A DNA stretch of 43,652 nucleotides from a virus. Below the pieces are notes generated by a model that worked only from the letters and a program-made list of their open reading frames with translations, was not told the DNA's origin and searched no databases. Position numbers and translations under genes: made by a program. Every line of letters begins with the position of its first letter. Position 1 is the stretch's first letter. Location of the stretch: UHGV virus genome UHGV-0122704; one strand, written 5' to 3'. This document shows, piece by piece, positions 28,045 through 42,382 of the stretch.

Positions 28045-30405
28045 ATGGCGCAATCATTAGAAGGTACTATTCAGAGCTTGCTGCAGGGCGTTTCCCAGCA
28101 GGTTCCGAGAGAGCGCCAACCAGGACAACTGGGGGCGCAGCTGAACATGCTCAGCGACCCGGTTTCCGGTATCCGCCGCAGACCCCCGGGTGAGATTGTC
28201 TGGGAAAGCACGATTGATAATCCAGGGCTTGATTCCCTGTTCACTGAATACGTAGAGCGTGGAACTGACGGTAGGCACCTGCTGATTAACACCAGCAACG
28301 GTAACTGGTGGTTACTGGCTAAGAATGGAAAGACCATCCTTAACTCCGGAAACGACCCGTACTTTATTACCGCCGTGGGTCAGACCTCTTTGCAGACCGC
28401 GAGTATTGCTGGACTGACTTATATCCTGAATACGGAGATGGCCCCGAACACAACCGTGGACAATACGGGGCGTATTGACCCAGGCACCACTGGGTTCTTC
28501 TACGTTAAATCTGCAGCATTCCAGAAACGCTGGAACGTCACTGTTACATCTGCCGGGGTAGATTACTCCGGGGACTACACCGCCCCAGCTGCTGGCAGTA
28601 CCAGTGGTAACGCTGAGGAGGTATCAGGTGCCTACGTTGCTCAGCAGCTGCGAGACTCTCTTGTAGCGAATGGATTGCCAGCTGGGAACGTTAGCGTACG
28701 CGGCGCATACTTGTTCTTCTATGGGTTGAGCAACTGTGTGGTATCCTCCGACGCTGGCGATACTTATGCTGGGGTATCCAACCAGTCTCGTGTAGACCAG
28801 GAGCAGGACCTACCTGCACAGCTCCCAGCGCAAGCTGACGGGGCGATGTGTCGTGTAGGTACAGCCTCGTCTGAGACAGCGTGGTACCAGTTCAGCTACA
28901 GCACCCGCACCTGGTCTGAGGTGGGAGCGTACGGCAGCATCACCAAGATTACGAACATGCCCCGAGAGCTTGCTGCAGATGACAACATTATTGCGCGGGA
29001 TTGGGAGGGGCGTTTAGCTGGTAACGACGACAATAACAGCGACCCCGGATTCGTGGAGAATGGATACATCACCGGCATTGCAGCTTTCCAGGGCCGCTTG
29101 GTTCTGCTTAGTGGTAGCTCCGTGGATATGTCTGCCTCAGGTCTGTACCAGCGCTTCTACCGCTCCACTGTGACGTCTCTGCTGGATACGGACCGTATCA
29201 GCATTAGCTCTGCGTCTGCACAGGATTCTGTGTATCGTACCGCTGTGCAGTTCAACCGGGACTTGGTCCTGTTTGCTAACAGCATGCAGGCGGTTGTGCC
29301 GGGTTCAGCGGTACTCACCCCCACTAACGCAAGTATTAGCATCACCAGCACCTACGAGTGTGATAGCCGTGTGACTCCGGTAATGGCGGGGCAGACGGTA
29401 ATCTACCCGAATAAGCGCAACAACAGCTACGCGGGTATACTGGAGCTAATCCCATCACCATATACTGCGGCGCAGTACACTACGCAGGACGCCACGGTGC
29501 ACCTGCCGCGGTACATTCCCGGCAGGGTATTGCAGATGCAAAACTCCAGTGTCACCAATATGGCCTTCTCACGAATGTCCGGAGAGCGAAATAACCTGCT
29601 GGTCTATGAGTTTATGTGGGGTGGGAGTGATGGTACTAAGATGCAAGCGTCGTGGCATAAATGGACGTTCCCATATCCAATCCTGAGCGTGCAGGCGCTG
29701 GAGGATGAGGTGTTCTTGTATATGCAAGGGCCCAGTCCCAGCAACAAGCTTTTGATTGTGTCTATGGACCCGCGTGAAGGTTATCAGCTGGGTTCGGAGT
29801 ACCGCGAAGCCTACTCGGATTTGCAGAAGCAAGTTCAAGTGCAGGATGGGGTGTTTACTGTTCCGGCGGTACTGCGCCCCGTCGGGTGGGCTGACAACTA
29901 CAAGGAAGAGCTTATCCTAACGTACTTGCCCAGCAACCCTATGGGGCCTACTGAGGTTGGCATCAAGGAGATTGCCGGGGAGAACACCCTGCGGGTTGTG
30001 CGTGGTGTACCTGATGGCACCTACGTAATTGGGAGACGCTACCGCAGTACGTTCACTCTAACTACGCCTATTCTACGGGACCAGAATGACAAGCTAGTGG
30101 GAAGTGGGCACGTGCGCCTGCTGCGCCTGGACGTAGCAGTACGTAACTCTGGGCACTTCGATGTACAGGTACTAGACACCCCACGGGACGTCAACTGGGG
30201 TGGGGAACTAACCGGTATCTTGATGAACTCAAAGGAGCTAACGCTTGGGCAGGCCCTGCGTATGGACTTGGCTACGATTACCGTGCCGTGCCGTACTAAC
30301 GCAGACACAACCGAGGTGACGTTATTTACTGAGGGTTCTATGGAACTGAACGTGCTGGATATCTCGTATATCCTGCGCTACAACCAACGCAGACGGAGAA
30401 TTTAA
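28045..30405 (+). CDS. Tail tubular protein B (T7 gp12-like)
   Basis: 786 aa directly after tail tube A; RBS AAGGAGAGG. Confidence 0.8.
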   Translation: MAQSLEGTIQSLLQGVSQQVPRERQPGQLGAQLNMLSDPVSGIRRRPPGEIVWESTIDNPGLDSLFTEYVERGTDGRHLLINTSNGNWWLLAKNGKTILNSGNDPYFITAVGQTSLQTASIAGLTYILNTEMAPNTTVDNTGRIDPGTTGFFYVKSAAFQKRWNVTVTSAGVDYSGDYTAPAAGSTSGNAEEVSGAYVAQQLRDSLVANGLPAGNVSVRGAYLFFYGLSNCVVSSDAGDTYAGVSNQSRVDQEQDLPAQLPAQADGAMCRVGTASSETAWYQFSYSTRTWSEVGAYGSITKITNMPRELAADDNIIARDWEGRLAGNDDNNSDPGFVENGYITGIAAFQGRLVLLSGSSVDMSASGLYQRFYRSTVTSLLDTDRISISSASAQDSVYRTAVQFNRDLVLFANSMQAVVPGSAVLTPTNASISITSTYECDSRVTPVMAGQTVIYPNKRNNSYAGILELIPSPYTAAQYTTQDATVHLPRYIPGRVLQMQNSSVTNMAFSRMSGERNNLLVYEFMWGGSDGTKMQASWHKWTFPYPILSVQALEDEVFLYMQGPSPSNKLLIVSMDPREGYQLGSEYREAYSDLQKQVQVQDGVFTVPAVLRPVGWADNYKEELILTYLPSNPMGPTEVGIKEIAGENTLRVVRGVPDGTYVIGRRYRSTFTLTTPILRDQNDKLVGSGHVRLLRLDVAVRNSGHFDVQVLDTPRDVNWGGELTGILMNSKELTLGQALRMDLATITVPCRTNADTTEVTLFTEGSMELNVLDISYILRYNQRRRRI

Positions 30406-30406
30406 T

Positions 30407-30994
30407 ATGTGGTGGATGGTTGCGGCCATGGCCGCTAAGGCCGTTCTGGGGCAGAGTGCTCAGATTGAAGTGTCCAAGGCCAGGAACAAGGCTGTGATTC
30501 AACAGACAGCCAAACAGTTAAACGATATAGCGCTGCAGCGTGCACAGTCCAGGGACAGGACTGAGGTATCCCTGTTTAACATCCAGCAGCAGAAACTGCA
30601 GGCGCAGAGCCAAGTAGTACTGCAGGCAGCAGCCTCTGGCACTATGGGGGCCTCTGTTAAAGACGCCGTAGCCACCGTGAACACAGTAGCAGGGCGACAA
30701 GAGGCTAGCGTACGGGACCAGCAGGCAACCCAGGAAGAGGGCTTCCGGCTAATGACGGACAAGGCTGTGGATAGTGGTCTGGCTAACATGGACATGGAGG
30801 ACCCGTACGATAACATGTTTAACTCGTTGCTAAGTGTTGGGGCATCTGCCGTTGGGCAGTACGCCGGTAACGCTGCGTCATCTTCTGACTCTGGCGGCTC
30901 ATCCCCTGGTAGCGGTGCGTCGGCTACACAGAACACGGCATCCTCCTATGACTTATGGGGGAGTAAGGGTAACAGCTCAGTTCATACCTGGTAA
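30407..30994 (+). CDS. Internal virion protein (T7 gp14-like)
   Basis: 195 aa at the position of T7 gp13/gp14; hydrophobic N-terminus. Confidence 0.65.
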   Translation: MWWMVAAMAAKAVLGQSAQIEVSKARNKAVIQQTAKQLNDIALQRAQSRDRTEVSLFNIQQQKLQAQSQVVLQAAASGTMGASVKDAVATVNTVAGRQEASVRDQQATQEEGFRLMTDKAVDSGLANMDMEDPYDNMFNSLLSVGASAVGQYAGNAASSSDSGGSSPGSGASATQNTASSYDLWGSKGNSSVHTW

Positions 30995-31011: not shown

Positions 31012-33696
31012 ATGCCTGTGATTCAACCCAATAGACAGGGGCTAAATGTCGGTGGCGTACAATTGCAGGCCAACGATGTTAGCTTGCCGTCAACGGTGAG
31101 TGAGGTATCTGTTGATACCTCCAAAGCAAAACGTCTAGCCGCCCTGTCTGGGTTTGTGCAGGACTTCGGCGTAGGCTTTGACGAGGCAGTAAAAGAGAAC
31201 GCCGCAGCCGCCACAGTGCGCGGCGCGATGGATGCTCAGGGTGCGGTGGACGCGATGGCCTCCAAGGACGAGGCTGTACAGAAGCAGAACATCTTCGTAC
31301 GTGAAGCCTACCAGGATGGCTACGTATCCGCTGCTGCATACGACTCGCTAGCCAAGTGGCGCACAGACAGTATCGCCCGGGCTAAGAAAGCTGCCGAGTC
31401 CGGGTTGACTGACGAGGAGTTCCAGCAGCAGGAGCAAGAGCACGTCCAGTCTATGTCGGACAAGCTCGGTATGTATCTACCGGATATGTCCAAGCAGTCC
31501 GCTACCACCATACTGCAGCAGCTCCGTGCTACCAGCATGGCGAACTATACAGCCTTCCAGAAAGGTCGAGCTGCGTTTGCCCTGGCGCAGGCTGACCGTG
31601 CCCTAGACCGCGGCCTTAGCTCGTCCAGTGATGAGTTCTATCAGCGCCTACAAGCAGGGCAGGGTGCCGCTGCGCAGATGTCTATCAAGACCGGCTTAGA
31701 CAGCATCCTGGCTGCTGAGCACCTGGATAAGAGCAAAAAGCTTGACCGGGCCAAGCAGTATTTGGTCAGCGTAGCGCAGCAGACGCAGGACCCGCTGGTA
31801 ATCAACCAGCTGCAAGAAATGGCCACTAAGGAACTTGGTGTCAACTCCGTAGATGTCAACGCGGCGCTATATCAGGAGTTCAAGCGTGCTGGTGCTCAGA
31901 TTGAGACCCAAGCCCGTTTCGAAATCTCTGATGCAATCCAGTCCCTTGAAGGGCAGACCCCAGAGCAGCAGGAACAGACTATGGCGCATATTCGTAGTCG
32001 TGTCATTGAGCTGTCTGCATCTGATGTGCTCAGCGCTGGCACCAGTATGGAGTTCTGGAACAAGGCCCAGACCATCCGCGAGAAGGCAGCGGACACCCAG
32101 GCATTGCGCACAGCAATCACTGGGAATATGCCAAGCTCTACTTTAGCAGGCATGTTCAAAGGGGACTTAGATAAGGCGCGTACTCAGCTGCTCAAGAGCT
32201 TTCCGGACACCCCGGAAGGGAACCTGCAGTTGCTGGCATACGGGAGCAACAGCAAGGATGCGTGGGCAGTCAACGAGGCGCACAAGCGTATGTCTTCGGA
32301 CATGGCACGTACGCTGACTACGCTGGACCAGCTCGGTGAGGATGGCGAGGTTTCCCGCGAGAACGTCAACAGCATCAACTTGTGGGCACAGGCTTATAGC
32401 ACCAGTACGGACTTAGGTAAGATGGCCCTGCTGTCTGAGGTCCCGTCCGAGTGGCAGGGGGTGGTGCAGAAAGCTATTGCACAAAACCCAAGCAATGCCA
32501 GCAATACTATCTTGGACGACCTGCGCCGCCAGGCGCGTAACAAGGCCAGTGGGCGCTACAGCAATATCCAGAGTAACCCCACGGACAAGATGGTAGACCC
32601 TAGCGGTACCAGCAACTGGTTCAGTTTCTTTGGCGATGCCGACGCTCAGCGCCAGGAAGCGCGCGCTGCTATGGAGGAGGAGTACCGTTATACGTACAGC
32701 CGCAACCCAGAATCTCTGGTGGGTAAAGATGCCGAGGACATCAACACGATGCTAAAGGGTAACATCCAAGCCCGTAAGCTAGAGCTGGAAATTGCCGGTA
32801 CGCCGAGGCACGTGTATCTGCCTGCCGGAACCTCTCTGCAGTCTATCATGGGCGACTACAAGGGCGACCAGGAGCAGTTCAAGGCTACTCTGCAACAGCA
32901 GATTCAAAACCAAGTCCAGGCCATCACCGACCCCAGCAACATGGAACGTGTAGTGGTGCAGGCTGCCACAGCGGGCAACGCGGGTCAGAACATGACCGTA
33001 ACCGTGTTCGACAAGAAGGGCACATTCCAGACTATGTCTGTGAACCTCCGTGACGTTCAGGCTACTGCGCAGGCTGCGTACGATTCGGCACTGGCTGGGG
33101 ATATGAAGATTGGCAGCGAGCAAGTGGGCGTACGTCCTGCCACCTTCTACGACCACGACAATGGGCGCGCTGTCAGCGTACAGGTCAACGGTCGTAACGC
33201 GGTGGGGCTGGAACCATCGCTGTTTAGTGACATCCTCGCCACCACTATGAAGTTCGAAGGGTTCCGAGAAGGCAAGGGCAAGGGTAGCGTAGGCTTCGGT
33301 CTGCACGTTAACTCGGGCATGCCTGTCCCTCAGAAAGTAACCATTGACGACGGTATCAGTATCCTTAAATCCTCTATGGAGAGGCAGTACGTTCCGAACG
33401 TGCAGAAGCAACTCAAGGGGCAGGGTTTGAATGCCTCCGATGAGGCGTTAAAGGTTATGGTGGACCTGAACTATCACGGTGGTAACGGTAGCTCTGGTCC
33501 TGTAGCAGAGGCGATGGCACAGGTACGTAAGGCTGCCAAGTCCCCGGTGGGGGCGTATCAGTATCCTGTATCTGAGGCCCAGGGTAGGGCTTGGCAAGCG
33601 CTGAGGAATACCCCGGCGTACAAGCAGGCCCAACCTGAGCGTAAGAAGTACCTGGAACAAAACCTACGTGATTGGCTCTTTGAGGCAACACACTAA
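31012..33696 (+). CDS. Internal virion protein (gp15-like) with possible C-terminal lysozyme-like domain
   Basis: 894 aa; C-terminal MKFEGFREGKGKGSVGFGLH loosely resembles the E-G...G-x-G-H lysozyme block. Size matches the phiKMV-type internal virion protein with a peptidoglycan hydrolase domain (from memory). Confidence 0.7.
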   Translation: MPVIQPNRQGLNVGGVQLQANDVSLPSTVSEVSVDTSKAKRLAALSGFVQDFGVGFDEAVKENAAAATVRGAMDAQGAVDAMASKDEAVQKQNIFVREAYQDGYVSAAAYDSLAKWRTDSIARAKKAAESGLTDEEFQQQEQEHVQSMSDKLGMYLPDMSKQSATTILQQLRATSMANYTAFQKGRAAFALAQADRALDRGLSSSSDEFYQRLQAGQGAAAQMSIKTGLDSILAAEHLDKSKKLDRAKQYLVSVAQQTQDPLVINQLQEMATKELGVNSVDVNAALYQEFKRAGAQIETQARFEISDAIQSLEGQTPEQQEQTMAHIRSRVIELSASDVLSAGTSMEFWNKAQTIREKAADTQALRTAITGNMPSSTLAGMFKGDLDKARTQLLKSFPDTPEGNLQLLAYGSNSKDAWAVNEAHKRMSSDMARTLTTLDQLGEDGEVSRENVNSINLWAQAYSTSTDLGKMALLSEVPSEWQGVVQKAIAQNPSNASNTILDDLRRQARNKASGRYSNIQSNPTDKMVDPSGTSNWFSFFGDADAQRQEARAAMEEEYRYTYSRNPESLVGKDAEDINTMLKGNIQARKLELEIAGTPRHVYLPAGTSLQSIMGDYKGDQEQFKATLQQQIQNQVQAITDPSNMERVVVQAATAGNAGQNMTVTVFDKKGTFQTMSVNLRDVQATAQAAYDSALAGDMKIGSEQVGVRPATFYDHDNGRAVSVQVNGRNAVGLEPSLFSDILATTMKFEGFREGKGKGSVGFGLHVNSGMPVPQKVTIDDGISILKSSMERQYVPNVQKQLKGQGLNASDEALKVMVDLNYHGGNGSSGPVAEAMAQVRKAAKSPVGAYQYPVSEAQGRAWQALRNTPAYKQAQPERKKYLEQNLRDWLFEATH

Positions 33697-33746
33697 CTAG
33701 AGGCCCTCCGGGGCCTCCCCTTATCAAAATTCTTTTAGGAGATATT

Positions 33747-36700
33747 ATGGCTCAGTTTCTGAACCAAGAACCGAATCCACAGGAAAAGGATTCTGCTAAG
33801 GGCGCAACACTTAAACCTGCGCCTGAGCGCGTAGATTGGAACGATGCCGGAGACAACGGCTTAAACGCACTGGAGCGTGCCTCCTTACTGGCGCAGGCCA
33901 AGACCCCAGCTACTACAGCCGGGGAGAGCTTTGCGTCTGGTATGGGTAACAGCATCATCGCCGCAGCTATCCGTAAGGCCTCTGCCCCGGCATTTGACCG
34001 GGACCAGAACTTTAACGCCAAGCAGACTCTGAGCAGCGATACCAGGGCTAAGCTGTATGCTCCGAATCAGGAAGAGATTGAGTACCTGCACGACTCTGTA
34101 TCGGTCGAGGATTACAACTACCGCATGCAGCAGATGCTTGAGCAACGCAACCGTGACCGCTTAATGGCTGACAACACGGTAGCCGGGTTCGCGGGTATGT
34201 TGGTGGGTGATTCTCCGTTCATCCTGGCCCCGATGTCTGCCGCTGGTATTGCTGGCCGCGCAGGCTTAGCTGCACGGACTGCTATCCGCGCTGCTGACGT
34301 AGGCTCCGCATTCTATGCGCAGGACCAACTGGGCCAGTCTGCTGCGGTAACTGCACTGGTAGCGGGCGTAGCTGGGTTGGACCAGCTCTGGGATATGTCT
34401 AGGGCTGCTAAAGCTGCTGCTAAGGCTCGTACTGGGCGTGAGCCTATGTTCGACCCAGAAGCGCCTACAACTCGTACAGCGAGGGACGCTAATGTTACAG
34501 GAGTAGGAGAGGGAGAGGAAATCCTTACTAAGACACTGGATGAAAGCATCCAAGTATCTAGAAACAATACCGCCTCCGTGAACATGAAAGCACAGCACGT
34601 AGTTCAGTTCTTGAAGAAGTCCGAACACTTAACAGCAGGCCAGAAGGCTATTCTGGACACGCTGGGCGATGCTGTAAATGACATTGATTTTAAACTGGTA
34701 GCAGGCTCCGCAAACCGCAGCCGCTACACTTACGCACAGCAAGATTTAGCTAAGCGTGGAGAGGTGTCTCTACGCGCACCTAAGCGAGCTAATGGCAGCA
34801 CATGGACTACAGCAGGGGACGCACTGCGTGCTATGGATGCAGACACAAGCAGGGTAGCCGTGCACGAACTGATTCATGCCGCCACTGCGCGCGCCGTTGA
34901 CAGTAACCCAGAGATTGCTAAGCGCCTGGATGAAGTGCGCGCTGTTATTGCAGCGGACTCCACCTTGACGCCGCGTATGCGGTATTACGCTAGTAATGTG
35001 CACGAGATGCTGGCAGGCTTAGGTGACAGCCCTGAGTGGGTTGAGCATCTGGCGCGGACGAAATCCCCAACCGGTAAGAGCATGCTCCGCCAACTGGGCG
35101 AGTACATCATGAATGCCCTGGGCATCAAGGCCAAAGGTTCTGCCTTGGAAGATGTCTTGGATGCGTACGAGGACGCCGTTAAGTGGACAGCTAAGGATTA
35201 TGCAGACCAAGCCCAGGGCTTCCGTAGTGAAGCCTTCCAGGACCTGGCGGGCAGCACTACCCTAAACGAGGCTAAGGGTGCCCAAGCTATGCTGGATGGC
35301 GCTAAGAAGAAGCTCTCTACTATGTTTGCCCTGTACGATAACATCGCTCAAGGCAATGAAGACTTGGCTAAACTGCTAGTGTCGGATGCGTCCGCAGTAG
35401 GCGGCCGTCGCCCGTCTGTAGTGGACTTCAAGCGCAACCTCACTTTGGAGATGGACGCCAGCGCTAGCGTAGTGGAAGACGCTATCCTGGGCGCGTTGAA
35501 GGATAAGGGTGTAGGTTTCTCTGAGCGCTTCTTCCATCGGAGCAAGTTCCGCGCTGAGCGGGCTGCACTGGAAGACCGCCTGAGCAAGTACCTGGATGCT
35601 GCCTACAGTGCTGATGTAAACGGCCGAGCTGTTCCCGTACCGGATGCAGAGATTGCCCCACTGGTTGACGCCTATCGCCGCTCTGGCTGGGCAGGCAAGT
35701 GGCACGAGCATATGCTCAATGCTGGTCTAGTGGATGATGGTGCGTTGGTTAAATCCGATTACTACTTCCCGCGTCAGTACAGCTACGACAAGATGCGCCA
35801 AGGTATTGCGCAGGGTAACACTCTGGACGACTACCGCGCCCTGTTCAGGTCCGCCCTGCGGGACGTGTACCCGAGCATGGAGTCAGAGGTAGTGCAGCGT
35901 GTTGCAAAGGAGATGGTTGACGGTATCTACAACGGCCGTGCAGGGCAGTCCGGCCCGATGTGGAAGCAGCTGATTAACGGCATGGGTAACGACGAGGTCG
36001 TTATGGCTATGCGTAGCGCTGGTGTAGATGAATCTGCAATCCAGAGTTTCCTGGCTGGTAACGTACGCGAATCCGGTAGCACATCCCCTGCGCGGAACCT
36101 GCGTCAGCGTACTCGGTTCAACATGGACAAAGAGTATCTGGTGAACGGTAAGAGCATGCGCATGCAGGACCTGATGGATACTGATGTAGCCAAGGTTATG
36201 CACGGGTACACTAACCGTATGTCTGGGCGTGTAGGCATGGCCTATGCAGGCGTACAGGACCTGGGCCAGCTAGCTAAGATGATTGATGAGTCTAAGCACG
36301 CACTGGCGGATTCCGCTAAGTGGGAGAAGACAGTCAATGACACCATCGACTTTATCCTGGGTGGGGCGCCTGCTGACGCCGGACAGCTTCCGGATTTGCT
36401 GCGTGCAGCCGGGAACATGGCTAACGCCACCATGCTTAAGAACTCCGGCCTGTATCAGCTGACTGACACTGCCCTGGCTATGAAGGAGTTCGGTATGGCT
36501 AGAGTGCTGCGTAGTATGCGTGACCAGCCTTGGTTCAAGGAAGGTGCCGTAGCTATCAAGACTCCGGATATGGCTACCCGTCTAGACACTGTACTGCGAG
36601 GTAATATCCAGAAGGAGATGCGCTTCCGCTGGTTGAATACGTACGCCGACGATAACCTGGACCTGACCCGTCAGGCCTCTTGGTTCAATGTAACCCAGAA

Positions 36701-37445
36701 CGTTGGGCAGGCTGCGCGTCACGTCAACGGTATGAGCATGGTGCACCGGCTGCAGGTTAACCTGAACTCCGGCATTGTGGCGGATGAGCTTACCCAGATG
36801 TTCAAGGGTGATGCTGCGGCGTTTAAGCGTCTGGAGCGTTTCGGGCTTACCCGCGACGTTGCTGACCGTGCCATCGCTGCCAACAAAGCCAACCCGGGCG
36901 CCATGTTCCAGCCGGACCTGCAAATGCAAGTTGAGGTTGTAGGGACGCGTATGATGGACTACCTGGTACAGCAGGTTCGTACTGGAGAGACCTCACACTT
37001 TGCACAGTTCAACCCTATCGGCAAAGTCATTGTAGGGTACCAGAGCTTCGCACTGGCCGCCACTAACAAGATTCTGCGTAGGGAGCTGAGCGACGCTGGG
37101 TGGATTGGCGTAGCCCATATTATGGCGTATCAATTCCCGCTGATGCTACTGGCTACTATGGCTAAGCACGGTATGGATGGGAAGGACGTAGACACCCAGA
37201 AACTCATCGGTGAGTCCGTGATGGGTATGAGTGCCATTGGCGGTGTATCCTTACTACAGGATATCTTCCTGGGGGATTCTCCCCGTCACTCATTGGCATC
37301 TATGGGTTACGTCACAGGACTACTTGGGGCTGTGCAGGACCTGGCTACCGGTAATATGGATATCAAGACCTTCACTAAGCAGGTGCCGTTAATCCAGGAA
37401 TTCGCACCTACGCGAGCTATCATCAATAACTTCGGAGACGATTAA
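33747..37445 (+). CDS. Internal virion (core / ejectosome) protein, gp16-like
   Basis: 1232 aa, the largest ORF, at the position of T7 gp16; RBS AGGAG. Confidence 0.75.
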   Translation: MAQFLNQEPNPQEKDSAKGATLKPAPERVDWNDAGDNGLNALERASLLAQAKTPATTAGESFASGMGNSIIAAAIRKASAPAFDRDQNFNAKQTLSSDTRAKLYAPNQEEIEYLHDSVSVEDYNYRMQQMLEQRNRDRLMADNTVAGFAGMLVGDSPFILAPMSAAGIAGRAGLAARTAIRAADVGSAFYAQDQLGQSAAVTALVAGVAGLDQLWDMSRAAKAAAKARTGREPMFDPEAPTTRTARDANVTGVGEGEEILTKTLDESIQVSRNNTASVNMKAQHVVQFLKKSEHLTAGQKAILDTLGDAVNDIDFKLVAGSANRSRYTYAQQDLAKRGEVSLRAPKRANGSTWTTAGDALRAMDADTSRVAVHELIHAATARAVDSNPEIAKRLDEVRAVIAADSTLTPRMRYYASNVHEMLAGLGDSPEWVEHLARTKSPTGKSMLRQLGEYIMNALGIKAKGSALEDVLDAYEDAVKWTAKDYADQAQGFRSEAFQDLAGSTTLNEAKGAQAMLDGAKKKLSTMFALYDNIAQGNEDLAKLLVSDASAVGGRRPSVVDFKRNLTLEMDASASVVEDAILGALKDKGVGFSERFFHRSKFRAERAALEDRLSKYLDAAYSADVNGRAVPVPDAEIAPLVDAYRRSGWAGKWHEHMLNAGLVDDGALVKSDYYFPRQYSYDKMRQGIAQGNTLDDYRALFRSALRDVYPSMESEVVQRVAKEMVDGIYNGRAGQSGPMWKQLINGMGNDEVVMAMRSAGVDESAIQSFLAGNVRESGSTSPARNLRQRTRFNMDKEYLVNGKSMRMQDLMDTDVAKVMHGYTNRMSGRVGMAYAGVQDLGQLAKMIDESKHALADSAKWEKTVNDTIDFILGGAPADAGQLPDLLRAAGNMANATMLKNSGLYQLTDTALAMKEFGMARVLRSMRDQPWFKEGAVAIKTPDMATRLDTVLRGNIQKEMRFRWLNTYADDNLDLTRQASWFNVTQNVGQAARHVNGMSMVHRLQVNLNSGIVADELTQMFKGDAAAFKRLERFGLTRDVADRAIAANKANPGAMFQPDLQMQVEVVGTRMMDYLVQQVRTGETSHFAQFNPIGKVIVGYQSFALAATNKILRRELSDAGWIGVAHIMAYQFPLMLLATMAKHGMDGKDVDTQKLIGESVMGMSAIGGVSLLQDIFLGDSPRHSLASMGYVTGLLGAVQDLATGNMDIKTFTKQVPLIQEFAPTRAIINNFGDD
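34490..34508 (+). promoter_or_regulatory. Copy C of conserved 19-bp motif TAATGTTACAGGAGTAGGA, inside the gp16-like gene
   Basis: Exact 19-mer identical to 22582..22600; lies in-frame within the coding sequence (encodes ...ANVTGVGEGEE...). Confidence 0.6.
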
Positions 37446-37446
37446 T

Positions 37447-38403
37447 ATGGCATACAGCTGGCAAGAACAAATCAAGCCAGCTGGTACCCAGGATATCCAG
37501 TGCGATATTGAATATTTGGACAAGTCCTATATTCATGTATACCTAGACGGTGTGGAAACCACTGGGTACACCTGGACCAGCTCTACTAATATCAGGCTTA
37601 ATTCGGCCTTAGCGGCAAGCACTACTGTGCTACTAATCCGTAAGACAGAGCGAGAGTATCTGTACATTGAGTTCGCCAGTGGTTCTCCGTTCATTGAGGT
37701 AAACGTAGACTCCCAAAACACGCAGTTCCTGCACCTTGCGCAGGAACTAGTGGAGGGCCGGGCTATACCCGGATTCTATGGCGCTATCAGCATGAACGGG
37801 TACCGGATAACCAACTTAGCCAACCCAATCAGTGCCCAAGATGCCGCCACTAAGGCTTATGTAGATGCCGCCGATGCCTTACTAGGACAGCGCATTGACG
37901 CAGAGCATTCGGGGTGGGTATCCGCTGTACAGGCCGAAGCCGTTACACGGAAGGCAGCAGATGACGCGCTGAGTGCCCGTACCTCCGCCTTGGAGAACAC
38001 CTTTATAAGCGGTGTAGAGACGGTAAGCTACCCGTGGAGCACGGTCCTGGCCACTGATACGGACGAAGTAACTCCAGGCTTAGCCTTCACTAAGGCTGTA
38101 GTAGAGGTTAACGGGGTTGGGCAGATTCGTGGCTACAGTTTCGATATTGTAGATAATACCATACTGTTTGCAGAGACCTTACCTGCAGGCACTATTGTAG
38201 CCGCTCGGCTGGGGGTTGATGTAACTGCGGGGGACGGTTTTGCTACGCAAGCATCCCTAGATTACTTAGCCGACTCTTTGGGAGATTTGGCGTATCTGGA
38301 CAAGGCTGCAGCTGTATCCAACGCAACCGGCACCGGGGATGTAGTGGCTAAATTTAACGCACTGCTGGCAGCGCTACGCACCAGTGGGGTGCTGTCTACA
38401 TGA
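37447..38403 (+). CDS. Tail fibre / adaptor protein with T7 gp17-like N-terminal domain
   Basis: MNGYRITNLANPISAQDAATKAYVD parallels T7 gp17 GRRIVNLANAVDDRDAVPFGQL. At 318 aa it is short, consistent with an anchor for a second receptor-binding protein. Confidence 0.8.
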   Translation: MAYSWQEQIKPAGTQDIQCDIEYLDKSYIHVYLDGVETTGYTWTSSTNIRLNSALAASTTVLLIRKTEREYLYIEFASGSPFIEVNVDSQNTQFLHLAQELVEGRAIPGFYGAISMNGYRITNLANPISAQDAATKAYVDAADALLGQRIDAEHSGWVSAVQAEAVTRKAADDALSARTSALENTFISGVETVSYPWSTVLATDTDEVTPGLAFTKAVVEVNGVGQIRGYSFDIVDNTILFAETLPAGTIVAARLGVDVTAGDGFATQASLDYLADSLGDLAYLDKAAAVSNATGTGDVVAKFNALLAALRTSGVLST

Positions 38404-41546: not shown

Positions 41547-41790
41547 GGTGGGAGACATGGTTGGAGCAGACATCGCTACCCGGGCAGGTGCAGCAGTTAC
41601 CGGCGCTACGGTATCAGGAGGTTGGTTGGCAGAGTTAATGAGCTGGAACTGGAGCACTATCAGCTTCATCACTGCGACGGTGTGCGCAGTGTTAACCCTG
41701 GCGTGGAATGCGTATTACAAGCGACGTACATTCAAGCTCCTAGAGGAGCAGGCACGTAAGGGGACTATTAAATATGAGTTTAAGGACTAA
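41539..41790 (+). CDS. Holin (two predicted TMDs; pinholin-like)
   Basis: 83 aa with two hydrophobic segments (AAVTGATVSGGWLAELM and STISFITATVCAVLTLAWNAYY) and a charged C-terminus; immediately upstream of the endolysin. Alternative start ATG 41557. Confidence 0.7.
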   Translation: MIKVGDMVGADIATRAGAAVTGATVSGGWLAELMSWNWSTISFITATVCAVLTLAWNAYYKRRTFKLLEEQARKGTIKYEFKD

Positions 41791-42382
41791 GGTTGTGGCG
41801 GCCCTTACGGGGGCCACCATGCTCGGCGGCGCTATCACTGGAGTGATTAAGCATAACGAAGGTCTAAGCCTCCCCGCCTATAGGGACAGTGCCGGTGTCC
41901 CTACCATCTGCTATGGCGAGACAAAGGGCGTCAAGATGGGCCAGAGAGCCACGCTGAGCGATTGTCAGAAGCAACTGATACAATCAGCAGGGGAACACGC
42001 AAAAGCCCTTGACGGGCTTCCTATGCAGCTCTCTGATGTAGCTCTGGTTGGGTCTATAGACTTTATTTATAACGTAGGAGTAGCTGGCTTCAACGGCAGC
42101 TCCGTGAAGCGGCATCTCAAGAACCTGGATTACGCAGCAGCTGGAAAGGCCGTACTGGACTGGCGCTATATTAGCAAGTACCAGCAGAAATCCCCGGGCA
42201 TCGGTTGGGTGTACAAGGGTAGCAACCGCTGGACCTTCGACTGTTCTCAGTATATTAACGGGCAGCGCAATAAAGTGTGCTGGGGCCTATGGGGGCGCAG
42301 ACAGTGGCAGAGCAAGGCCATTGGGAATCAGTATAAGAATGTAAATGCTGCGGTGGCAGCTCTTACTAAGACCGGAGGATAA
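41774..42382 (+). CDS. Endolysin, GH24 (T4-lysozyme-like) muramidase with N-terminal SAR domain
   Basis: Gly/Ala-rich weakly hydrophobic N-terminus VVAALTGATMLGGAITGVI followed by catalytic E-x8-D-x5-T (NEGLSLPAYRDSAGVPTICYGET). Confidence 0.85.
   Translation: MSLRTKVVAALTGATMLGGAITGVIKHNEGLSLPAYRDSAGVPTICYGETKGVKMGQRATLSDCQKQLIQSAGEHAKALDGLPMQLSDVALVGSIDFIYNVGVAGFNGSSVKRHLKNLDYAAAGKAVLDWRYISKYQQKSPGIGWVYKGSNRWTFDCSQYINGQRNKVCWGLWGRRQWQSKAIGNQYKNVNAAVAALTKTGG

What the first reader, a model, noticed from the sequence alone, without database searches (positions are those of the whole stretch)
33340..33696. Possible lysozyme-like domain at the C-terminus of the 894-aa internal virion protein
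The tail of the gp15-like protein contains MKFEGFREGKGKGSVGFGLH, loosely resembling the catalytic block of phage lysozymes. Virion-borne peptidoglycan hydrolases assist genome entry in T7-group phages. From memory, the phiKMV-type internal virion protein of similar size carries such a C-terminal domain. The motif match is weak.
Basis: partly seen in the sequence, partly recalled or inferred. Interest (0 to 1): 0.4.

Follow-up and report, generated by a model that had tools for sequence, protein, structure and literature searches.

The report
Virion lysozyme-fold domain lacking catalytic Asp
The tail end of a large protein packed inside this Klebsiella phage's head folds like a phage lysozyme and most likely nicks the bacterial cell wall during DNA injection, a feature already annotated in near-identical phages; the only twist is that one of the three usual catalytic residues is deleted.

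Summary
The window is a KP34-like (Drulisvirus) Klebsiella podophage. The 894-aa ORF (31012-33696, +) is real and is the gp15-like internal virion (ejection) protein.

**Coordinates.** The quoted motif MKFEGFREGKGKGSVGFGLH exists, at aa 746-765 (nt 33247-33306). That is upstream of the coordinates given, which start at aa 777 and cut off the catalytic lobe. The domain spans about nt 33151/33214-33693.

**Sequence evidence is weak.** Pfam and NCBIfam give no hit. BLASTP against phiKMV gp36C gives E 0.07.

**Structure evidence is strong.**
- The AlphaFold2 model has pLDDT 91.
- A family profile links the domain to the experimentally active phiKMV gp36C (hhalign 90.5%, E 1.4e-6).

**Catalytic residues.**
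- Glu749 (T4L Glu11) is invariant across the family.
- Ser759 (T4L Thr26) is kept as Ser or Thr.
- A 5-residue deletion in the beta-hairpin removes the Asp20 equivalent.

So this is a lysozyme-fold, virion-borne domain that probably cuts peptidoglycan. Its chemistry is either attenuated or uses a single Glu. Activity is untested.

Orthologues are already annotated "internal virion lysozyme motif" (PHROG 2083), and related ejectosome structures describe the same domain. The finding is correct but ordinary.

Seen in passing: a strictly conserved HExxH module in the adjacent gp16-like protein.

The parts
31012..33696 (+). 894-aa gp15-like internal virion / periplasmic-tunnel ejection protein (orthologue of KP34 p47, phiKMV gp36, PhiM1 OEP gp49)
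   Evidence: ORF list. PHROG 2083 'internal virion lysozyme motif', E=0 over the full length. PDB 23sg_N gp11, E=0, and 8vb2_I octameric ejection protein, E 4.9e-8. 98.8% nt identity to Klebsiella phage RCIP0038.
33151..33693 (+). C-terminal lysozyme-fold (GH24/T4L-like) domain, aa 714-894; the globular core starts at about aa 735 (nt 33214)
33184..33207 (+). Conserved pre-domain motif VNGRNAVG (aa 725-732; Gly727 and Asn729 invariant), shared with phiKMV gp36 'MNGGNSAG'
   Evidence: Invariant columns G14 and N16 of alignment A1. The motif is aligned to phiKMV gp36C by hhalign and by hmmsearch.
33247..33306 (+). Catalytic block MKFEGFREGKGKGSVGFGLH (aa 746-765): Glu749 (nt 33256-33258) = T4L Glu11; shortened GH beta-hairpin; Ser759 (nt 33286-33288) = T4L Thr26; Gly763 = T4L Gly30
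   Evidence: Sequence. Alignment A3 with T4L, two SAR endolysins and gp36C: the E11 and G30 columns are invariant, the T26 column is S/T, and T4L residues 20-24 are deleted here. Motif survey of 136 proteins and 64 loci.
33460..33483 (+). C-lobe motif VDLNYHGG (aa 817-824; Asp818 invariant). It aligns with 'IDFIYNVG' of the phage's own endolysin and 'INMVFQMG' of T4L
   Evidence: Invariant D105 in A1; alignment A5.
33640..33642 (+). Arg877, invariant in the family. Possibly the counterpart of T4L Arg145, the salt-bridge partner of Glu11; this is an inference and was not verified
   Evidence: Invariant R164 in A1. MAFFT did not align the C-terminal helices reliably.
30407..30994 (+). gp14-like internal virion protein (195 aa), first gene of the ejectosome module
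   Evidence: PHROG 4295 'internal virion protein', E 4.2e-82.
33747..37445 (+). gp16-like internal virion protein (1232 aa), partner of the gp15-like protein in the ejectosome; carries a conserved HExxH at aa 373-377 (nt 34863-34877)
   Evidence: PDB 23sg_S gp10, E=0, and 8vb2_A PhiM1 tetrameric ejection protein, E 5.1e-91. PHROG 342. HExxH conservation.

Best explanation
The last ~180 residues (aa 714-894) of the gp15-like ejection protein form a T4/P22-type (GH24-like) lysozyme-fold domain. It is homologous to the C-terminal lysozyme domain of phiKMV gp36.

**Proposed mechanism.** By analogy with the PhiM1 and Ar-KM structures, the protein is packaged in about eight copies in the core stack above the portal. 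It is ejected ahead of the DNA and re-assembles as the periplasmic tunnel. The lysozyme-fold domains then sit on the outside of the tunnel at the level of the murein layer. There they cleave glycan strands locally, so the channel can reach the inner membrane.

**Active site.** Glu749 is the general acid, equivalent to T4L Glu11. Ser759 occupies the Thr26 position. The beta-hairpin is 5 residues shorter than in T4L, so the Asp20 equivalent is missing. I therefore expect one of two things: attenuated muramidase activity, as in P22 lysozyme D20L or SpmX, or single-Glu chemistry like a lytic transglycosylase. I do not expect a fully canonical Glu-Asp-Thr hydrolase.

**Shown here:** the ORF, the fold, the profile-level homology, the residue conservation and the purifying selection.

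**Inferred:** virion location and copy number, position at the murein layer, and catalytic activity and its chemistry.
For: **Fold**
- AF2 pLDDT 91, pTM 0.86.
- In BFVD the top hits are C-termini of ~900-aa internal virion proteins (Providencia, Pantoea LIMElight, Ralstonia RSB3) and LKA1 'lysozyme'.

**Homology chain**
- Family profile A1 against phiKMV gp36C: hhalign 90.5%, E 1.4e-6.
- A1 against PDB 28sd_a, an 898-aa internal virion protein: E 0.0066.
- gp36C passes Pfam PF00959 with 29.2 bits against a threshold of 22.3.
- gp36C is reported as an active thermostable lysozyme.
- Three long-hairpin family members reach 18-19 bits on PF00959.

**Residues**
- The columns for E11, T26 (S/T) and G30 are conserved against T4L, two SAR endolysins and gp36C.
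- Glu749 is present in every homologue that contains the region. That includes the PhiM1-like phage PP16.

**Selection**
- dN/dS is about 0.05-0.07 for the domain against 84-86%-identical orthologues.

**Context**
- The gene order is gp14-like, gp15-like, gp16-like.
- The PhiM1 paper describes a lysozyme-like domain (Gly718-Ser903) on the octameric ejection protein.
- The Ar-KM preprint places the lysozyme domain on the gp15-like tunnel protein, facing outward. It finds this layout in 31 of 127 Autographivirales genomes.
- D20L attenuates P22 lysozyme but does not abolish it, whereas E11A abolishes activity.
Against: - No muralytic assay exists for this protein or any Drulisvirus orthologue that I could find.
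- The window's domain gets no Pfam or NCBIfam hit.
- It shows no significant profile match to T4L or to the phage's own endolysin.
- Foldseek E-values against the PDB are weak, with a best of 0.038.
- The original KP34 paper judged the orthologue to have no significant lysozyme similarity.
- The Asp20 equivalent is deleted, and no other acidic residue is conserved in the hairpin. In T4L most substitutions at this position reduce activity to a few percent.
- The residue mapping rests on sequence alignment and predicted secondary structure. I could not superpose coordinates.
Confidence: 0.75

Rival explanations
1. The domain is a catalytically dead lysozyme fold kept for a non-enzymatic role. 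Candidate roles are anchoring the periplasmic tunnel to peptidoglycan, forming the groove around which the last-packaged DNA spools inside the capsid, or stabilising the core stack.
For: - The Asp20 equivalent is deleted and the GH beta-hairpin is truncated.
- Sequence similarity to active lysozymes is below every curated threshold.
- SpmX shows that GH24 domains can be co-opted for localisation.
Against: - Glu749 is invariant across lineages as low as 28% identical. The T26-position Ser/Thr, the GxG block and the DxxYxxG motif are also kept.
- That pattern was taken as evidence of retained, selected activity in SpmX, where D20L only attenuates and E11A abolishes activity.
- A purely structural role would not need the Glu.
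Confidence: 0.2
2. The motif is a chance resemblance, and the C-terminus is simply more of the helical gp15-like body with no lysozyme relationship. This was the KP34 2011 view.
For: - BLASTP against gp36C gives E 0.07 at 22% identity.
- Pfam gives no hit.
- The KP34 paper reported only marginal similarity.
Against: - hhalign against gp36C gives 90.5%.
- The catalytic-block columns are conserved.
Confidence: 0.03
3. The domain is the phage's lysis enzyme (endolysin) rather than an entry enzyme.
For: It has a lysozyme fold. One GenBank record labels the orthologue simply 'lysozyme' (H38).
Against: - The window has a separate SAR endolysin at 41774-42382. It has a strong PF00959 hit (E 1.9e-20) and the canonical Glu29/Asp38/Thr44, and it lies next to small ORFs in the lysis-cassette position.
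- The 894-aa protein is a structural component: its orthologue is a chain in entry 23sg, and bands are seen in KP34-like virions.
Confidence: 0.02

Closest known systems
phiKMV gp36 C-terminal lysozyme domain (gp36C; PHROG 2083 'internal virion lysozyme motif')
   Same: - Same protein size (898 vs 894 aa).
- Same gene position, between the gp14-like and gp16-like genes.
- Same C-terminal location of the domain.
- Shared pre-domain NGxNSxG motif.
- Shared Glu and S-V-G-x-G block.
- Profile-level homology.
   Different: - Only about 22% identity.
- gp36C keeps the Asp (FEAYRGEAYKDADGYSVGLG) and passes the Pfam PF00959 threshold. The window's domain has a hairpin 4 residues shorter than gp36C, no Asp, and no Pfam hit.
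- gp36C activity has been measured; this domain's activity has not.
PhiM1 octameric ejection protein gp49, lysozyme-like domain Gly718-Ser903 (PDB 8vb2)
   Same: - The N-terminal body is homologous (E 4.9e-8).
- Foldseek matches the C-terminal domain with TMq 0.57.
- The related phage PP16 also has a Glu-containing, Asp-less short hairpin, YEGYTPSKGFSV.
- The domain was seen in a packaged ejectosome.
   Different: The C-terminal domains are too diverged for phmmer. The PhiM1-type has lost the GxG block after the Ser.
T4 lysozyme / P22 lysozyme / SAR endolysins (GH24, Pfam PF00959)
   Same: - Same catalytic Glu at the end of helix 1.
- S/T at the Thr26 position.
- DxxYxxG motif in the C-lobe.
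   Different: - The domain is fused to an ejection protein of about 710 residues.
- T4L residues 20-24, including Asp20, are deleted.
- There is an extra insertion at about aa 840-865.
- It scores below the Pfam threshold.
SpmX muramidase domain of Caulobacterales (PDB 6h9d)
   Different: It is a bacterial developmental protein. Asp20 is substituted (L/R) rather than deleted, and Thr26 is also lost there whereas it is kept here.
T7 gp16 N-terminal lytic transglycosylase
   Same: An ejectosome-borne, single-Glu murein-cleaving domain at the level of the cell wall, so the functional role is equivalent.
   Different: - It is on a different subunit (gp16 rather than gp15) and at a different terminus.

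Membership tests
GH24 / T4-type phage lysozyme (Pfam PF00959 Phage_lysozyme) | Two-lobe T4L-like fold with the active-site cleft between the N-lobe beta-hairpin and the C-lobe helices | tested here: met
   [not shown]
GH24 / T4-type phage lysozyme (Pfam PF00959 Phage_lysozyme) | Score above the Pfam gathering threshold (22.3 bits) | tested here: not met
   No hit for the whole protein or the C-terminal 181 aa, even at E<=1. The best family relatives reach 18-19 bits.
GH24 / T4-type phage lysozyme (Pfam PF00959 Phage_lysozyme) | [quoted passage not shown] | tested here: met
   Glu749 lies at the end of predicted helix 22-36. Its column is invariant against T4L, the endolysins and gp36C. It is invariant in the family.
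GH24 / T4-type phage lysozyme (Pfam PF00959 Phage_lysozyme) | Asp in the GH beta-hairpin 9 residues after the Glu (T4L Asp20) | tested here: not met
   A 5-residue gap covers T4L 20-24 in alignment A3. The distance from Glu to Ser/Thr is 10 here, against 15 in T4L and the phage's own endolysin. No acidic residue is conserved in the loop.
GH24 / T4-type phage lysozyme (Pfam PF00959 Phage_lysozyme) | Thr/Ser at the T4L Thr26 position, followed by I/V-G-x-G | tested here: met
   Ser759-Val-Gly-Phe-Gly; the position is S/T in all family members.
GH24 / T4-type phage lysozyme (Pfam PF00959 Phage_lysozyme) | Muramidase activity (hydrolysis of MurNAc-beta-1,4-GlcNAc) | not testable with these tools
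   Needs a zymogram, an RBB-sacculi assay and muropeptide mass spectrometry. No published assay for Drulisvirus orthologues was found.
phiKMV gp36-type internal virion protein with C-terminal lysozyme (PHROG 2083) | Protein of about 900 aa encoded between the gp14-like and gp16-like internal virion genes | tested here: met
   894 aa at 31012-33696, flanked by 30407-30994 (PHROG 4295) and 33747-37445 (PHROG 342). phiKMV has the same order.
phiKMV gp36-type internal virion protein with C-terminal lysozyme (PHROG 2083) | Full-length match to the family profile | tested here: met
   PHROG 2083: E=0, 1098 bits, residues 1-894 against profile 1-908. The C-terminal 181 aa alone give E 7.5e-68.
phiKMV gp36-type internal virion protein with C-terminal lysozyme (PHROG 2083) | C-terminal domain homologous to the experimentally active gp36C | tested here: met
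   hhalign 90.5%, E 1.4e-6 over 68 columns. hmmsearch of A1 against 28sd_a gives E 0.0066. Pairwise BLASTP alone is not significant.
phiKMV gp36-type internal virion protein with C-terminal lysozyme (PHROG 2083) | Packaged in the virion and ejected | not testable with these tools
   Indirect only. The orthologue (E=0) is a chain in solved entry 23sg, together with the gp16-like protein. SDS-PAGE bands are assigned in KP34-like virions.
GH23 lytic transglycosylase of T7 gp16 type | Goose-lysozyme/Slt70-like fold as the best structural match | tested here: not met
   [not shown]
GH23 lytic transglycosylase of T7 gp16 type | Domain at the N-terminus of the gp16-like protein | tested here: not met
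   The domain is at the C-terminus of the gp15-like protein. The 1232-aa gp16-like protein has no SLT or lysozyme Pfam hit.

The most novel reading that the evidence does not exclude
The KP34/PhiM1-type ejection-protein domain may represent a stable GH24 sub-lineage that lacks Asp20 and has a short hairpin. It would still be catalytically competent, through one of two routes.
- It acts as a single-Glu lytic transglycosylase and produces 1,6-anhydro-muropeptides.
- It acts as a deliberately attenuated muramidase, tuned to open a local hole without lysing the cell from without.

The strict retention of Glu749 and Ser/Thr759 across lineages about 30% identical fits selected activity rather than a dead fold. 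So does the fact that the long-hairpin relatives (Vibrio, Novosibovirus, phiKMV) keep or nearly keep canonical spacing.
Probability: 0.35. Interest if true: 0.4.

Novelty: already known. Interest (0 to 1): 0.2.

Why it matters
It confirms that Drulisvirus phages, which are widely used as anti-Klebsiella therapy candidates, carry a cell-wall-cutting module on the gp15-like tunnel protein. T7 carries its module on gp16 instead. This corrects the 2011 statement that KP34 lacks such a domain.

In practice it supports the existing database label. It also flags that the label 'lysozyme' should not be read as a canonical Glu-Asp-Thr enzyme.

If the Asp-less variant proves active, it would be a natural example of a GH24 fold working without Asp20. 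It would also be a small, possibly thermostable enzyme of interest for enzybiotic work.

Tried and rejected
**Sequence searches on the main domain**
- Pfam and NCBIfam scans of the protein and the C-terminal 181 aa found nothing.
- phmmer against PDB sequences found only the orthologue 23sg_N and no lysozyme.
- BLASTP against phiKMV gp36 gave E 0.07 for the C-termini.
- hhalign of the family profile against T4L and against the phage's own endolysin was not significant.
- An exhaustive phmmer search of 1.8 billion cluster representatives returned only 12 clusters. One of them, P0138, a repetitive 1775-aa protein, I rejected as spurious.
- Two of the three word-indexed homologue searches returned almost only fragments.

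**Literature**
- I looked for a paper behind PDB 23sg and for any muralytic assay on KP34-type virion proteins. I found none.

**gp16-like side question**
- The single-sequence AF2 model of gp16-like aa 255-540 was unusable at pLDDT 44, so no fold search was run on it.

**Other checks**
- MAFFT did not align the C-terminal helices with T4L reliably. The proposed equivalence of Arg877 and T4L Arg145 therefore remains an inference.
- No terminal direct repeat was found in the window.
- The hairpin after the stop codon is unremarkable, z -1.65.
- The antisense ORFs over the region (32779-33411, 33448-33660 and 33455-33727, all on the - strand) have no support. I treat them as by-products of GC-rich coding sequence.
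Full report
**What the window is**

The 2685-nt gene is 98.8% identical at the nucleotide level to Klebsiella phages RCIP0038 and RCIP0043. It is 91-93% identical to many other KP34-like (Drulisvirus, Autographiviridae/Slopekvirinae) phages. In all, 242 phage records match.

The ORF list shows the T7-like late module on the + strand:
- tubular tail protein B, 786 aa, 28045-30405
- a 195-aa gp14-like protein, 30407-30994
- the 894-aa protein, 31012-33696
- a 1232-aa gp16-like protein, 33747-37445
- a 318-aa tail-fibre protein, 37447-38403

PHROG assignments agree with this order.

**Check of the observation**

The 894-aa ORF is real. The quoted peptide MKFEGFREGKGKGSVGFGLH is in it, at aa 746-765, nt 33247-33306.

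The coordinates in the finding (33340-33696) correspond to aa 777-894. They therefore leave out the quoted motif and the whole N-terminal lobe of the domain. The domain I modelled is aa 714-894 (nt 33151-33693), and its first helix begins at about aa 735.

- Pfam gives nothing for the protein or its last 181 aa, even at E<=1. NCBIfam gives nothing either.
- phmmer against all PDB sequences finds only a close orthologue (23sg_N 'gp11', 893 aa) and no lysozyme.
- BLASTP of the C-terminus against phiKMV gp36 (898 aa) gives 22% identity and E 0.07. Even so, it pairs FEGFREGKGKG----SVGFG with FEAYRGEAYKDADGYSVGLG.
- This matches the 2011 KP34 paper. That paper stated that the orthologue KP34p47 (894 aa) shows no significant similarity to gp36 or to its lysozyme domain.
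- An exhaustive phmmer search of 1.84 billion cluster representatives found only 11 genuine clusters. Nearly all are ~870-930-aa proteins with the match at their C-terminus. This is a small, self-contained family.

**Profile-level evidence links it to phiKMV gp36C**

I aligned ten diverse C-terminal domains, 28-56% identical to the window, as alignment A1. The results were:
- hhalign of A1 against phiKMV gp36C gives 90.5% probability and E 1.4e-6.
- hmmsearch with A1 against PDB sequences hits an 898-aa phiKMV-type internal virion protein (28sd_a) at E 0.0066.
- gp36C itself passes the Pfam Phage_lysozyme threshold, 29.2 bits against 22.3.
- Three long-hairpin members of the family reach 18-19 bits.
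- According to the literature quoted, gp36C is an experimentally active, thermostable lysozyme.
- A1 against T4 lysozyme and against the phage's own endolysin is not significant.

**Structure-level evidence is strong**

AlphaFold2 on aa 714-894 with a 15-sequence alignment gave pLDDT 91.0 and pTM 0.86. The model has a helix ending at Glu749, a short beta-hairpin and then helices.

Foldseek against the PDB also ranks lysozymes and the PhiM1 ejectosome chain first, but with weak E-values.

Against predicted viral structures the top hits are the C-termini of ~900-aa internal virion proteins. These are Providencia PSTRCR_114 (E 9.5e-12, TMq 0.88), Pantoea LIMElight and Ralstonia RSB3. LKA1 'lysozyme' follows.

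**Catalytic residues**

I aligned the N-lobes of T4L, the window's own endolysin, the phiKMV gp45 endolysin, gp36C and seven family members (A3). The alignment shows:
- The T4L Glu11 column is invariant (Glu749 here).
- The Gly30 column is invariant (Gly763).
- The Thr26 column is always Ser or Thr (Ser759).
- The window's protein has a 5-residue gap covering T4L residues 20-24, so Asp20 has no counterpart.

The Glu-to-Ser/Thr distance is 10 here. It is 15 in T4L and in the window's own endolysin, which has the canonical Glu29/Asp38/Thr44. It is 14 in gp36C.

Across 136 homologous proteins and 64 loci the 'EG[FY]' Glu never varies. The second Glu of 'REG' and every loop position do vary.

The only invariant acidic residues in A1 are Glu749 and Asp818. 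Asp818 lies in the C-lobe motif VDLNYHGG, which aligns with IDFIYNVG of the endolysin and INMVFQMG of T4L.

Relatives with long hairpins keep spacing of 14-15. These are Vibrio VP93-like phages, Pseudomonas PA28 of genus Novosibovirus, and some metagenomic proteins. Some of them have an Asp near the canonical position.

The short form is also present in the PhiM1-like phage PP16, as YEGYTPSKGFSV. It is therefore an old and stable state.

The domain is under purifying selection: dN/dS is about 0.05-0.07 against 84-86%-identical orthologues. dS is near saturation, so this value is approximate.

**How it most likely works**

By homology the 894-aa protein is the periplasmic-tunnel (gp15-like) ejection protein.
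- In PhiM1 it is the octameric ejection protein. It sits in the core stack above the portal and carries a lysozyme-like domain at Gly718-Ser903.
- In the phiKMV-like phage Ar-KM the stoichiometry is 4:8:8. The lysozyme domains are predicted to face outward from the assembled tunnel at the height of the cell wall.

I infer the same here: about eight copies are ejected ahead of the DNA, and their C-terminal domains cut murein locally.

The missing Asp matters. In the SpmX study, P22 lysozyme D20L and the naturally Asp-less SpmX domain keep attenuated hydrolytic activity, whereas the Glu-to-Ala mutants are dead. I therefore expect attenuated muramidase activity, or single-Glu chemistry like a lytic transglycosylase. 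An invariant Glu argues against a dead fold.

None of this has been assayed for a Drulisvirus protein as far as I could find.

**Comparison with what is known, and novelty**

Orthologues in GenBank already carry the names 'internal virion lysozyme motif', 'internal virion protein B' or even 'lysozyme'. PHROG 2083 covers the whole protein with E=0.

The PhiM1 paper and the Ar-KM preprint describe this arrangement. The preprint counts it in 31 of 127 Autographivirales genomes with identifiable domains.

The finding is therefore right but already known. The only element I did not see described is the deletion of the Asp20 segment in the KP34/PhiM1-type domains.

**Seen in passing**

The adjacent gp16-like protein carries VAVHELIHAAT at aa 373-377 and a downstream VHEMLAGLG.
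- HExxHAxT is invariant in an alignment spanning Klebsiella, Vibrio, Pseudomonas PA28 and phiKMV gp37. It is present in all 54 loci where the region was covered.
- A profile of the region also matches the PhiM1 tetrameric ejection protein (LLHEAAHAKT, E 3.9e-6).
- It matches residues 1120-1311 of a 2493-aa 'virion DNA-directed RNA polymerase' (11fw_A, LIHELVHAST, E 4e-5).
- tblastn reaches the RNA polymerase gene of the 79.6-kb Acinetobacter phage nACB1.
- The PhiM1 paper calls this region 'endolysin/exotransglycosidase-like'. Neither structural paper mentions a metal or peptidase motif.
- Pfam gives only a faint 'putative zincin peptidase' hit at E 0.22.
- My single-sequence AF2 model was unusable.

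This looks like a gluzincin-type motif in ejected proteins and deserves its own follow-up.

Noticed in passing
window 34863-34877 (HELIH, aa 373-377 of the 1232-aa gp16-like protein, 33747-37445 +) and about 34995-35021 (VHEMLAGLG): There is a strictly conserved HExxHAxT motif with a conserved Glu about 45 residues downstream, a gluzincin-like arrangement. It is invariant from Klebsiella Drulisvirus through Vibrio VP93-like phages and Pseudomonas PA28 to phiKMV gp37, and is present in all 54 loci covering the region. It is also present in the solved chains 23sg_S, 9sfn_G and the PhiM1 TEP 8vb2_A. The PhiM1 paper labels the region 'endolysin/exotransglycosidase-like', and neither structural paper mentions zinc or a peptidase. 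It may be a metallopeptidase module in an ejected protein.
   Followed up: partly
window 34509-35366 (gp16-like aa 255-540), compared with PDB 11fw_A and Acinetobacter phage nACB1 (OQ032511.1, 22746-23204): The same HExxH module matches residues 1120-1311 of a 2493-aa 'virion DNA-directed RNA polymerase' chain (E 4e-5, 'LIHELVHAST'). It also matches the RNA polymerase gene of a 79.6-kb Acinetobacter phage (tblastn E 4e-4). This suggests a module shared between T7-type ejection proteins and virion RNA polymerases. I could not identify which phage 11fw comes from.
   Followed up: partly
window 33184-33207 (aa 725-732, VNGRNAVG): A conserved NGxNxxG motif lies just upstream of the lysozyme-fold core. 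Gly727 and Asn729 are invariant. It is shared with phiKMV gp36 (MNGGNSAGM) and contributes to the hhalign match. Its role is unknown; it could be a linker, an interface or a hinge.
   Followed up: no
window about 33529-33606 (aa 840-865 of the 894-aa protein): The C-lobe insertion occurs in at least three alternative versions: 'KAAKSPVGAYQYPVSEAQGRAW', 'KSKDSAGAALYSSPQASAAAL' and 'KVKGAADGGMYSRTQAQAIAM'. These are combined with different N-lobe variants in different phages, which suggests mosaic recombination inside the domain. The AF2 confidence dips here, with a block pLDDT of 71.
   Followed up: no
window 41774-42382 (+): This is the phage's own endolysin: 202 aa with a hydrophobic N-terminus (SAR type, per the KP34-genus paper). 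It hits PF00959 at E 1.9e-20 and has the canonical Glu29/Asp38/Thr44 spacing. The genome therefore carries one canonical GH24 domain and one Asp-less one.
   Followed up: yes
window 33700-33717 (+), between the stop codon of the 894-aa gene and the start of the 1232-aa gene: There is a 7-bp GC-rich hairpin, GAGGCCC-UCCG-GGGCCUC, immediately after the stop codon, with no adjacent U-run. The 61-nt region folds at -17.3 kcal/mol with z -1.65, so it is not remarkable. The terminator scan does not call it.
   Followed up: partly
whole window 1-43652: No direct repeat of 60 nt or more occurs anywhere in the window. The ~220-bp terminal repeats reported for related Drulisvirus genomes (fHe-Kpn01 abstract) are therefore not both present. 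The record is probably trimmed or permuted.
   Followed up: partly
related records: Acinetobacter phage vB_AbaA_LLY (OQ503491.1), Escherichia phage vB_EcoP_ZX6, Shigella phage SFN6B: Phages labelled with non-Klebsiella hosts carry these ejection-protein genes at 84-97% amino-acid identity to the Klebsiella Drulisvirus versions. Either the host range is unusually wide or the host labels are questionable.
   Followed up: no
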